Shown here: in pieces, positions 2,874-3,494 of the stretch | How positions within the stretch are numbered: position 1 is the stretch's first letter | Layout of the letters: every line of letters begins with the position of its first letter | IMG/VR virus record: IMGVR_UViG_2531839195_000008 | Reading direction: 5' to 3' (one strand) | DNA length: 6,272 nucleotides | DNA from: a virus | Lineage: Duplodnaviria > Heunggongvirae > Uroviricota > Caudoviricetes | Position numbers and translations under genes: made by a program | The notes under the pieces: model-generated | What the model was told of the DNA's origin: nothing | The model's input: only the letters and a program-made list of their open reading frames with translations | Database searches by the model: none

Positions 2874-3139
2874 AAAACGCAGGATCTGCATGCTGGTCTT
2901 AAAAATATCCAGTTTTGCCATCTGCGCCGCCGATGAACACGGGATCCCCGCCAGCAACGGGATATATTTCAGTGCCACCTGGCTGTCCAGTTTAATACTG
3001 CCTTCACCGGAAATAATGAAAGGAAAACCCAGCGCCTCGATTTCGTCATACGTGGGCTCGCGCAACTCCAGCACATGCAGCATTTCGTTATGCGCTGTCA
3101 CCGGTTTTTTAAAACTATTTCTGTAACGTTCATTGCCAT
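2805..3139 (-). CDS. Tail assembly chaperone (P2 E / lambda G analogue); reading frame disrupted by a 1-nt homopolymer frameshift near the 5' end
   Basis: GAGGGAGGG SD, then ATG at 3139-3137 overlapping the tube stop (TAATG). That frame stops after 13 codons (MAMNVTEIVLKNR*, TGA at 3100-3098). The long ORF (...KKPVTAHNEMLHVLELREPTYDEIEALGF... to TGA at 2807-2805) is in the -1 frame from the T4A6 run at 3105-3114. Position between tube and tape measure and the slippery site near its 3' end support the chaperone call. Confidence 0.6.
2871..2877 (-). other. Slippery heptamer U UUU UUU for programmed -1 ribosomal frameshift in the tail chaperone gene
   Basis: A7 on plus equals T7 on the coding strand, read as CGT TTT TTT ACC in the chaperone frame. 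The -1 frame is open from here for about 52 codons (YPVGDGKHLRKRLYNVAWFWKLNPLELRRVAVSQFTELEAEAVRINEEMKHG*) and stops at 2715-2713, overlapping the tape-measure ATG (2720-2718). Confidence 0.65.
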
Positions 3140-3494
3140 TACTGATACCCTCCCTCTTCGCCGTGGAATTCAAGATCTGCCGTGCCTTCTTCGGCATTAT
3201 GATTAGCCTCTCCGTGCAGCCATGCCGCCGAAAGCACATACACCATGCCGTTTGCCAGCTCAGCGGTAATCGTCATCTGGTCTGAGGTGGTAATTTTGTC
3301 GACCGGAAAGTTTTTGGGCACTTTAAACGTGCCCTTAACGTAAGGTGACCGCCAGGTCTCCTTGTAATCCACATCCCCTGCCATGCCGACGATGTCATCC
3401 CGGACATTGGTGTTCATCGGCACTTCAATGCCACCTGTCAGCGATAACTGCTGACCATCCACTTTAAAAAACAGGTTCCGGCGATCTTTGCCAT
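3139..3494 (-). CDS. Phage tail tube protein (Mu gpM-like size class); reading frame disrupted by a 1-nt homopolymer frameshift near the 5' end
   Basis: GAGGAG SD 8 nt before ATG at 3494-3492, which overlaps the sheath stop (TAATG). That frame reads MAKIAGTCFLKWMVSSYR* and stops at 3440-3438. The long ORF (...FFKVDGQQLSLTGGIEVPMNTNV... to TAA at 3141-3139) is the -1 frame from the T6 run at 3466-3471. Repaired length is about 118 aa. The ORF-track start at 3564 has no SD and would overlap the sheath gene by 70 nt. Confidence 0.65.

What the first reader, a model, noticed from the sequence alone, without database searches (positions are those of the whole stretch)
3098..3150. Tail chaperone gene shows the same signature: TAATG-coupled start, frame closes after 13 codons, body in -1 frame after T4A6
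GAGGGAGGG SD, then ATG 3139-3137 overlapping the tube stop, reads MAMNVTEIVLKNR*. The long chaperone ORF continues in the -1 frame from the homopolymer at 3105-3114; one additional A or T merges them (MAMNVTEIVLKKPVTAHNEML...). Two adjacent genes both needing +1 nt in a homopolymer suggests either systematic sequencing undercalls or genuine decay of a defective prophage. The sheath and tape-measure ORFs are intact, which slightly favours real lesions.
Basis: partly seen in the sequence, partly recalled or inferred. Interest (0 to 1): 0.55.

Follow-up and report, generated by a model that had tools for sequence, protein, structure and literature searches.

The report
Homopolymer miscall splitting phage chaperone gene
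The broken start of this phage tail-chaperone gene comes from one missing A in a run of seven; finished genomes of the same Shigella lineage have all seven, so it is most likely a sequencing error in a draft contig of a dead prophage remnant.

Summary
ATG 3139-3137 overlaps the tube stop and opens a 13-codon ORF ending at TGA 3100-3098. The chaperone body continues in the -1 frame after T4A6 (3105-3114).

The window is the reverse complement of a whole 6,272-bp draft contig, AKMZ01000058.1. It carries a phiP27-like prophage tail remnant bounded by IS600 and IS1. Ten other Shigella flexneri assemblies carry the same locus, nine of them on contigs longer than 4.5 Mb. Four match the window at all 5,975 aligned bases except two 1-nt gaps: T7 to T6 in the tube gene and A7 to A6 in the chaperone gene. 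The other six add one or two private differences. Phage phiP27 and the 40 closest complete E. coli genomes also have T7 and A7.

Drafts with neighbouring accession prefixes have different subsets of the locus's 7-base runs shortened. Two assemblies of apparently one strain disagree on run lengths. The most likely cause is therefore a homopolymer undercall, not decay or recoding.

Orthologues start upstream of the run, so the internal-start alternative is refuted. The chaperone's real programmed -1 frameshift site lies elsewhere, at T7 2871-2877, and is intact and conserved. The finding is ordinary and of low interest.

The parts
3098..3139 (-). 5' fragment of the tail assembly chaperone gene: TAATG-coupled ATG, 13 codons (MAMNVTEIVLKNR), then TGA
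   Evidence: It matches the first 11 residues of the intact 111-aa protein in L007.
3148..3156 (-). Shine-Dalgarno GAGGGAGGG, 8 nt upstream of the chaperone ATG
   Evidence: Read directly from the sequence. Conserved in FDAARGOS_944; phiP27 has GAGGGAGGA.
3105..3114 (-). T4A6 run. The A run is one base shorter than the A7 found in all finished relatives. This is the site of the frame break.
2805..3104 (-). Body of the chaperone gene in the -1 frame relative to ATG 3139 (Pfam Phage_TAC_7), with its 0-frame stop TGA at 2807-2805
   Evidence: Pfam PF10109 scores 27.6 bits on the repaired protein; PHROG 166, E = 4e-27.
2871..2877 (-). T7 slippery heptamer (CG T TTT TTT ACC), the chaperone's canonical programmed -1 frameshift site. 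It is intact in the window.
   Evidence: T TTT TTT or T TTT TTC sits at the same place in phiP27, SfIV, ST64B and SfV. Run length checked.
2713..2870 (-). -1 frame extension (52 aa, YPVGDGKHLRK...RINEEMKHG) that makes the longer chaperone form. Its TGA lies 8 nt inside the tape-measure gene.
   Evidence: Conserved at protein level in four phages. PHROG 32181 hit on the extension.
3438..3494 (-). 5' fragment of the tail tube gene (ATG 3494-3492 overlaps the sheath stop). It runs 18 codons and then TGA because of the T6 run.
3466..3471 (-). T6 run in the tube gene, one base shorter than the T7 of relatives. This is the companion lesion.
3139..3465 (-). Body of the tube gene in the -1 frame (Pfam Tail_tube)
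   Evidence: The repaired 118-aa protein hits PF10618 at E = 1.4e-33.
771..2720 (-). Tape measure gene, intact (649 aa)
   Evidence: PF10145
3494..4990 (-). Tail sheath gene, intact (498 aa)
5501..6272 (-). End of an IS600 copy that truncates the tail terminator gene and forms one contig end
   Evidence: It carries a 27-nt deletion relative to other copies, between 5973 and 5974.
1..143 (.). End of an IS1 copy that forms the other contig end

Best explanation
The frame break is most likely a base-calling or assembly undercall of a 7-base homopolymer (A7 read as A6) in a fragmented draft assembly. The same holds for the neighbouring tube gene (T7 read as T6). The underlying gene is an ordinary tail assembly chaperone of the P2 gpE / Mu gp41 type (Pfam Phage_TAC_7). 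It belongs to a phiP27-like prophage remnant that Shigella flexneri carries between an IS600 and an IS1.

In the real DNA the gene most probably reads MAMNVTEIVLKKPVTAHNEML... (111 aa) from the TAATG-coupled ATG. It makes its longer form through the conserved -1 frameshift at T7 2871-2877.

Shown here: the base is missing relative to every finished relative, the window is a whole draft contig, and drafts with neighbouring accession prefixes have scattered undercalls of 7-base runs. Inferred: the cause is the sequencing chemistry. The accession series and the 2010-era runs suggest pyrosequencing, but that rests on my own knowledge and was not verified with tools.
For: 1. Source. The window equals the reverse complement of the entire 6,272-bp contig AKMZ01000058.1 of GCA_000268025.1.

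2. Same lineage, better assemblies. Ten other S. flexneri assemblies carry the same IS600-remnant-IS1 locus, nine on contigs longer than 4.5 Mb and one on a 34-kb contig. Four (L007, L009, L010, L014) differ from the window at 0 of 5,975 aligned bases apart from the two 1-nt gaps; L008 does so over the 5,548 bases it shares. The others add one or two private differences. All ten have A7. Nine were counted as T7; the count failed for L005 because of an adjacent C-to-T change, but it shows no gap there against the T7 reference.

3. Wider relatives. phiP27, E. coli FDAARGOS_944 and AST215 have T7/A7. The 40 best complete E. coli genomes match over spans of 903 or 897 nt, which equals the 901-nt query plus 2, or plus 2 minus a 6-nt N-terminal difference.

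4. Neighbouring drafts. Each shortens a different subset of the locus's 7-base runs. AFHB01 (L036) shortens the IS600 A7, the chaperone A7 and an intergenic T7. AFHA01, AFHC01, AKND01 and AKNC01 shorten only the tube T7.

5. Disagreeing assemblies. L036 (AFHB01) and L028 (Logan assembly of SRR060519) share the substitution 3363 C>T, seen in no other locus compared against that reference. They are therefore probably one strain. They disagree on the tube run (7 vs 6) and on the run at reference position 5781 (7 vs 6).

6. Other T6+A6 assemblies. L016, L017, L028, L025 and L030 each carry further homopolymer deletions in the same 5 kb.

7. Homoplasy. T6+A6 occurs on both alleles of the SNP at reference position 2327 (A in the window and L017, T in L016 and L028), so it is not one inherited state.

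8. Frequency. The intact tube and chaperone proteins are each on at least 1,000 contigs. Truncated calls are on about 2-30 contigs.
Against: - No reads or platform record could be examined.
- Three of the five 7-base runs in the prophage part of the window are intact, as is the A7 in IS600 and every 6-base run. Undercalling is therefore not uniform.
- Some assemblies carry a single lesion and no other error: L015 (A6), L031 (T6), L019 and L020 (A8). Some of these may derive from Illumina data, so real length variation at these runs probably exists in some strains.
- The remnant is under no selection, so real slippage mutations would be tolerated.
- Most lesion-bearing loci were found by searching for truncated proteins, so their frequencies are biased by ascertainment.
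Confidence: 0.78

Rival explanations
1. The lesions are genuine strain-specific decay. Two real replication-slippage deletions (A7 to A6, T7 to T6) arose in this strain's prophage remnant, which is already dead and therefore free to accumulate frameshifts.
For: - The remnant lacks head and baseplate genes, and IS600 truncates its tail terminator gene, so there is no purifying selection.
- Real lesions occur at this locus. An 11-nt deletion at the tube T run is seen in L029 and 10 similar places.
- A8 is seen in two assemblies, L019 and L020.
- The related prophage ST64B carries a real, inherited frameshift in a tail assembly gene, sb21/sb22 (PMC5322425, PMC3853940).
Against: - It requires two independent indels with zero substitutions in 5,975 bases relative to other strains.
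- The same runs are shortened in random subsets in drafts with neighbouring accession prefixes. They are called differently in two assemblies of apparently one strain.
- T6+A6 occurs on both alleles of the one informative SNP, so it is homoplastic.
- None of the ten other S. flexneri assemblies of the locus fetched without reference to the lesion has it.
Confidence: 0.18
2. The breaks are sites of recoding. Both lie on 0-frame X XXY YYZ heptamers (A AAA AAC in the chaperone, T TTT TTA in the tube). Programmed -1 ribosomal frameshifting or transcriptional slippage would then give full-length tube and chaperone from the sequence as written.
For: - Both heptamers are in the right register, and a -1 slip would restore near-wild-type proteins (reading).
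- The region downstream of the tube run folds somewhat better than shuffles (z = -2.2, 4 of 200 shuffles fold as well).
Against: - The shifted arrangement is absent from every relative, including the phage phiP27. All relatives encode the genes in one frame.
- The heptamers follow trivially from deleting one base from a 7-base run that starts at codon position 3.
- There is no structure downstream of the chaperone site (z = +1.0).
- The tracts are not conserved in SfIV, ST64B or SfV.
- From general knowledge, runs of 6 are too short for efficient transcriptional slippage.
Confidence: 0.02
3. There is no lesion. The chaperone really starts at an internal codon (GTG 3100 or ATG 3083) downstream of the run, and the upstream ATG is irrelevant.
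For: Annotators have called 98-aa and 92-aa products from those starts in a few assemblies.
Against: - Orthologues in phiP27, SfIV, ST64B and SfV start upstream and conserve (I/L)xLKKP(I/V) across the run, with different codons.
- Pfam Phage_TAC_7 aligns from residue 8 of the repaired protein (27.6 bits, cutoff 25). The protein started at ATG 3083 scores 16.4 bits and begins at profile position 16.
- The 92-aa and 98-aa calls were found only in assemblies with A6 or A8.
Confidence: 0.01

Closest known systems
Tail assembly protein of phage phiP27 (L46, NP_543098.1) and the E. coli/Shigella prophage protein WP_001251341.1
   Same: Same gene in the same place, in the order sheath, tube, chaperone, tape measure. 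DNA identity is 96-99.7%. Both share the TAATG coupling to the tube stop, the T4A7 tract and the T7 frameshift site.
   Different: The window has A6 instead of A7, which splits the ORF. The S. flexneri copies carry Cys where the E. coli and phiP27 copies have Arg (window 2939). phiP27 starts two codons later (MSVTEIV...).
Tail assembly chaperones with a programmed -1 frameshift (lambda gpG/gpGT, P2 gpE/E+E', Mu gp41 type; Pfam PF10109 Phage_TAC_7)
   Same: The gene lies between the tube and tape-measure genes. It matches PF10109 above the cutoff. A slippery heptamer near its 3' end opens a 52-aa -1 extension that ends just inside the tape-measure gene.
   Different: That programmed site is at 2871-2877, not at the flagged site. 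The 5' break at 3105-3114 has no counterpart in the family.
Homopolymer-length errors of flow-based and nanopore sequencing (general knowledge)
   Same: The error is a 1-nt undercall confined to the longest runs. The affected runs vary between assemblies. Finished genomes lack the error. Two assemblies of apparently one strain disagree.
   Different: The platform used for GCA_000268025.1 could not be checked with the tools available.
ST64B sb21/sb22 frameshift in a tail assembly gene (Figueroa-Bossi and Bossi 2004, as cited in PMC5322425 and PMC3853940)
   Same: A frameshift splits a tail gene of a prophage in the same SfV/ST64B/phiP27 group.
   Different: The ST64B lesion is inherited coherently across a clade of strains and has a demonstrated phenotype. 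The lesion here is unique to one draft contig and is homoplastic among error-prone assemblies.

Membership tests
Phage tail assembly chaperone (Pfam PF10109 Phage_TAC_7; gpG/gpGT-like) | Sequence match to the family profile above the curated threshold | tested here: met
   The repaired 111-aa protein scores 27.6 bits against a cutoff of 25, over residues 8-75. PHROG 166 gives E = 4e-27. The product as encoded from ATG 3083 scores only 16.4 bits.
Phage tail assembly chaperone (Pfam PF10109 Phage_TAC_7; gpG/gpGT-like) | Gene lies between the tail tube gene and the tape-measure gene | tested here: met
   The order sheath, tube, chaperone, tape measure holds in the window and in all relatives.
Phage tail assembly chaperone (Pfam PF10109 Phage_TAC_7; gpG/gpGT-like) | Slippery heptamer near the 3' end, with a -1 ORF extension running to the tape-measure start | tested here: met
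   T TTT TTT at 2871-2877 opens a 52-aa extension ending at 2713. It is conserved in phiP27, SfIV, ST64B and SfV. Frameshifting itself was not measured.
Phage tail assembly chaperone (Pfam PF10109 Phage_TAC_7; gpG/gpGT-like) | Uninterrupted ORF from the coupled start codon | tested here: not met
   In the window as written, A6 closes the frame after 13 codons. The feature is met in all finished relatives.
Programmed -1 ribosomal frameshift site, applied to 3105-3114 | X XXY YYZ heptamer in the 0 frame | tested here: met
   A AAA AAC, and also T TTA AAA, read in the frame of ATG 3139. This is a trivial result of deleting one base from an in-register 7-base run.
Programmed -1 ribosomal frameshift site, applied to 3105-3114 | The two-frame arrangement is conserved in related genomes | tested here: not met
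   All relatives encode the gene in a single frame.
Programmed -1 ribosomal frameshift site, applied to 3105-3114 | Stimulatory structure downstream of the heptamer | tested here: not met
   The 64 nt downstream fold no better than shuffles (z = +1.0).
Sequencing or assembly homopolymer undercall | The difference is a 1-nt length change within a long homopolymer and nothing else | tested here: met
   The only two differences from L007 in 5,975 bases are T7 to T6 and A7 to A6.
Sequencing or assembly homopolymer undercall | Absent from finished genomes of the same lineage | tested here: met
   None of the ten S. flexneri assemblies fetched through the sheath protein has either run shortened; nine are on contigs longer than 4.5 Mb.
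Sequencing or assembly homopolymer undercall | Other long runs are affected stochastically in assemblies of the same series, and assemblies of one strain disagree | tested here: met
   AFHB01, AFHA01, AFHC01, AKND01 and AKNC01 each shorten a different subset. L036 and L028 disagree on two runs. That L036 and L028 are one strain is inferred from the shared substitution 3363 C>T.
Sequencing or assembly homopolymer undercall | Read-level run length is ambiguous or longer than the consensus call | not testable with these tools
   No reads and no platform metadata were available.
Genuine pseudogene from prophage decay | The lesion is inherited coherently by a clade of strains | tested here: not met
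   T6+A6 occurs on both alleles of the SNP at reference position 2327. Apart from the window it is found only in assemblies with further homopolymer errors.

The most novel reading that the evidence does not exclude
The T7 and A7 tracts sit about 10 codons into the tube and chaperone genes of phiP27-like prophages. They could be real hypermutable tracts whose length varies in nature (6, 7 or 8), switching tail production off and on in lysogens. The window would then capture a double-off state, leaky through -1 slippage on the resulting T TTT TTA and A AAA AAC heptamers.
Probability: 0.03. Interest if true: 0.4.

Novelty: not a real feature. Interest (0 to 1): 0.07.

Why it matters
It matters mainly as a caution. 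Two adjacent "frameshifted" tail genes look like prophage decay or recoding. Here they are best explained by undercalls of 7-base runs in a draft contig, and any count of pseudogenes from such assemblies would be inflated in the same way. Even if the lesions were real, they would be two neutral slippage mutations in a prophage remnant already cut off by IS elements. The one biologically meaningful frameshift signal in this gene is the conserved -1 site at 2871-2877, which is already a well-known feature of tail assembly chaperones.

Tried and rejected
- An exact scan of genome contigs for the A6 version of the site found nothing.
- The 98-aa product (P0004) was not on record, so the lead to S. 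flexneri G1663 was not pursued. It became moot once the IS600 ORF look-up identified the source contig.
- The original ST64B resuscitation paper (PMC419927) is not held. Its content is cited only through PMC5322425 and PMC3853940.
- A text search for the WGS accession prefixes, meant to find the sequencing platform, returned one irrelevant paper.
- Recoding at the 5' sites was considered and rejected because the arrangement is not conserved and the chaperone site has no downstream structure.
- An internal start was considered and rejected.
- I did not estimate an undercall rate from the lesion-bearing loci, because they were found by searching for truncated proteins and are biased by ascertainment.

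Full report
**1. Observation**

On the minus strand, GAGGGAGGG (3156-3148) lies 8 nt upstream of ATG 3139-3137. That ATG overlaps the tube stop TAA 3141-3139. The frame reads MAMNVTEIVLKNR and stops at TGA 3100-3098. The run is T4 (3114-3111) followed by A6 (3110-3105). The long ORF listed as 2805-3239 is in the -1 frame relative to that ATG. The description and coordinates in the finding are correct.

**2. What the locus is**

On the minus strand the window encodes, in order:
- part of an IS600 transposase
- a truncated tail terminator
- a DUF2635 protein
- a 498-aa sheath
- the tube
- the chaperone
- a 649-aa tape measure
- a 160-aa hypothetical protein
- the end of an IS1

The nearest phage is phiP27 at 95.8% DNA identity. 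SfIV, ST64B and SfV are more distant relatives.

With one A added, the chaperone passes the Pfam Phage_TAC_7 threshold (27.6 bits, cutoff 25, residues 8-75) and matches PHROG 166. With one T added, the tube matches Pfam Tail_tube at E = 1.4e-33.

Orthologues all begin upstream of the run and conserve (I/L)xLKKP(I/V) across it, using different codons. The protein restarted at ATG 3083 scores only 16.4 bits and begins at profile position 16. The upstream ATG is therefore the ancestral start, and the internal-start alternative is refuted.

**3. What exactly differs**

Against E. coli FDAARGOS_944, 5,357 bases align at 99.9%. Over the 4,406 bases compared base by base, the differences are four substitutions and two 1-nt gaps. 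The gaps are T7 to T6 in the tube gene (window 3466-3471) and A7 to A6 in the chaperone gene (3105-3110).

The 40 best complete E. coli genomes match the 901-nt query over 903 or 897 nt. That equals the query plus 2, or plus 2 minus a 6-nt N-terminal difference.

An exact look-up of the sheath protein returned ten S. flexneri assemblies with the same IS600-remnant-IS1 locus. Nine are on contigs longer than 4.5 Mb and one is on a 34-kb contig. Four of them (L007, L009, L010, L014) differ from the window at 0 of 5,975 aligned bases apart from those two gaps, and L008 does so over the 5,548 bases it shares. The rest add one or two private differences. All ten have A7. Nine were counted as T7. The count failed for L005 because of an adjacent substitution, but L005 shows no gap there against the T7 reference.

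**4. Where the window comes from**

The window's IS600 ORF is a unique 228-aa product, because it carries a 27-nt deletion. A look-up of that product found one record in the whole collection. This is AKMZ01000058.1 of GCA_000268025.1, a 6,272-bp contig whose reverse complement is identical to the window. The window is therefore one whole repeat-bounded contig of a fragmented draft.

**5. Artefact or real lesion**

Within the part shared with the FDAARGOS_944 reference there are five 7-base runs and six 6-base runs. The window shortens two of the 7-base runs and none of the 6-base runs. The sheath gene contains no run of 6 or more, and the tape-measure gene has only 6-base runs. Their intactness therefore says nothing either way.

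Drafts with neighbouring accession prefixes shorten different subsets of the 7-base runs:

| Draft (locus) | Runs shortened |
|---|---|
| AKMZ01 (window) | tube T7, chaperone A7 |
| AFHB01 (L036) | IS600 A7, chaperone A7, intergenic T7 |
| AFHA01 (L022) | tube T7 |
| AFHC01 (L026) | tube T7 |
| AKND01 (L023) | tube T7 |
| AKNC01 (L027) | tube T7 |

L036 and the Logan assembly of SRR060519 (L028) share the substitution 3363 C>T, seen in no other locus compared against that reference. They are therefore probably one strain. Yet they disagree on the tube run (7 vs 6) and on another T run (7 vs 6).

Every other assembly with both T6 and A6 (L016, L017, L028, L025, L030) has further homopolymer deletions within the same 5 kb. 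L030 undercalls essentially every run of 6 or more.

T6+A6 occurs on both alleles of the one informative SNP, at reference position 2327. It is therefore recurrent and not inherited.

The intact proteins are each on at least 1,000 contigs. Truncated calls are on about 2-30 contigs.

Together this points to stochastic undercalling of 7-base runs. My assumption that the chemistry was pyrosequencing rests on the accession series and run numbers. It is my own knowledge and was not checked.

**6. What keeps the rival alive**

- The remnant is non-functional, because IS elements have removed the head and baseplate genes. Real frameshifts would therefore be neutral.
- A real 11-nt deletion at the tube T run exists in L029 and ten similar places.
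- A8 occurs in L019 and L020. L015 and L031 carry a single clean lesion each.
- The related prophage ST64B has a real, inherited frameshift in a tail assembly gene (PMC5322425, PMC3853940).

Against this, the window would need two independent real indels with no substitution in about 6 kb. From general knowledge of E. coli mutation spectra, that is unlikely in a mismatch-repair-proficient lineage.

I put the artefact at about 0.78 and a real lesion at about 0.18.

**7. Recoding**

The breaks fall on A AAA AAC and T TTT TTA in the 0 frame, and a -1 slip would restore both proteins. This follows automatically from removing one base from a 7-base run that starts at codon position 3.

The arrangement is absent from every relative. 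The tracts are not conserved beyond the closest relatives. The chaperone site has no downstream structure (z = +1.0).

The genuine programmed site is T TTT TTT at 2871-2877. Its 52-aa -1 extension ends 8 nt into the tape-measure gene. The same arrangement (T TTT TTT or T TTT TTC) is conserved in phiP27, SfIV, ST64B and SfV, and it is intact in the window.

**8. Verdict**

The frame break is most likely not real. It is of low interest except as a warning about pseudogene calls in draft assemblies.

Noticed in passing
window 2871-2877 and 2713-2870 (minus strand): The chaperone's canonical programmed -1 frameshift site is T TTT TTT. It opens a 52-aa -1 extension that ends 8 nt inside the tape-measure gene. 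The arrangement is conserved in phiP27, SfIV, ST64B and SfV (T TTT TTC in SfV). RefSeq annotates none of these as a frameshift product. No strong downstream structure was found (z = 0.39).
   Followed up: yes
window 5973/5974 (inside IS600 orfB, 5542-6228): A 27-nt in-frame deletion (GCCACACAGGAGGGATGGTTGTACCTC) and two substitutions separate this IS600 copy from the copy at this position in the other S. flexneri assemblies that span it, and from the best E. coli IS600 copies. The resulting 228-aa product is on a single contig in the whole collection. It lies near a contig end inside a multicopy repeat, so it may be an assembly artefact or a private variant.
   Followed up: partly
window 1-143 and 5501-6272: The window is a whole draft contig bounded by IS1 and IS600. 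The prophage remnant keeps only the genes from tail terminator (truncated) to tape measure plus one hypothetical gene. Head genes and baseplate genes present in E. coli relatives are missing.
   Followed up: yes
L029 (Logan SRR13429671), reference positions 2497-2507, equivalent to window about 3467-3477: An 11-nt deletion (AACCTGTTTTT) removes part of the tube 5' end at the same T run. It is seen in this contig and ten similar places, so it looks like a real lineage-specific lesion.
   Followed up: partly
L019 (NGWC01000164.1) and L020 (Logan SRR5998709), chaperone A run: These two assemblies have A8 instead of A7 and no other indel. This may be real length variation of the tract in some strains, or the two may be one strain assembled twice.
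   Followed up: no
window 2939 (minus strand codon TGT): All S. flexneri copies have Cys (IPCSS) where E. coli FDAARGOS_944 and phiP27 have Arg (IPRSS) in the chaperone.
   Followed up: no
window 3400-3464 (minus strand): The 65 nt downstream of the tube T run fold better than shuffles (-21.6 kcal/mol, z = -2.2, 4 of 200 shuffles as good). The effect is mild and conservation was not examined.
   Followed up: no
L003 (E. coli FDAARGOS_944, NZ_CP065613.1) 3464-4758: The closest complete-genome relative of the remnant has an ISEc60 inserted in the sheath gene and many IS600 copies. It still has a fuller prophage, with capsid, connector and baseplate genes.
   Followed up: no
L021, L023, L025, L027 (contigs with the S. 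sonnei-type version of the locus): All four have T6 in the tube gene, on a haplotype 8-10 substitutions away from the S. flexneri copy. It is unclear whether this is a fixed real lesion in that lineage or repeated undercalling. L025 has about ten further 1-nt gaps, most of them in homopolymer runs.
   Followed up: partly
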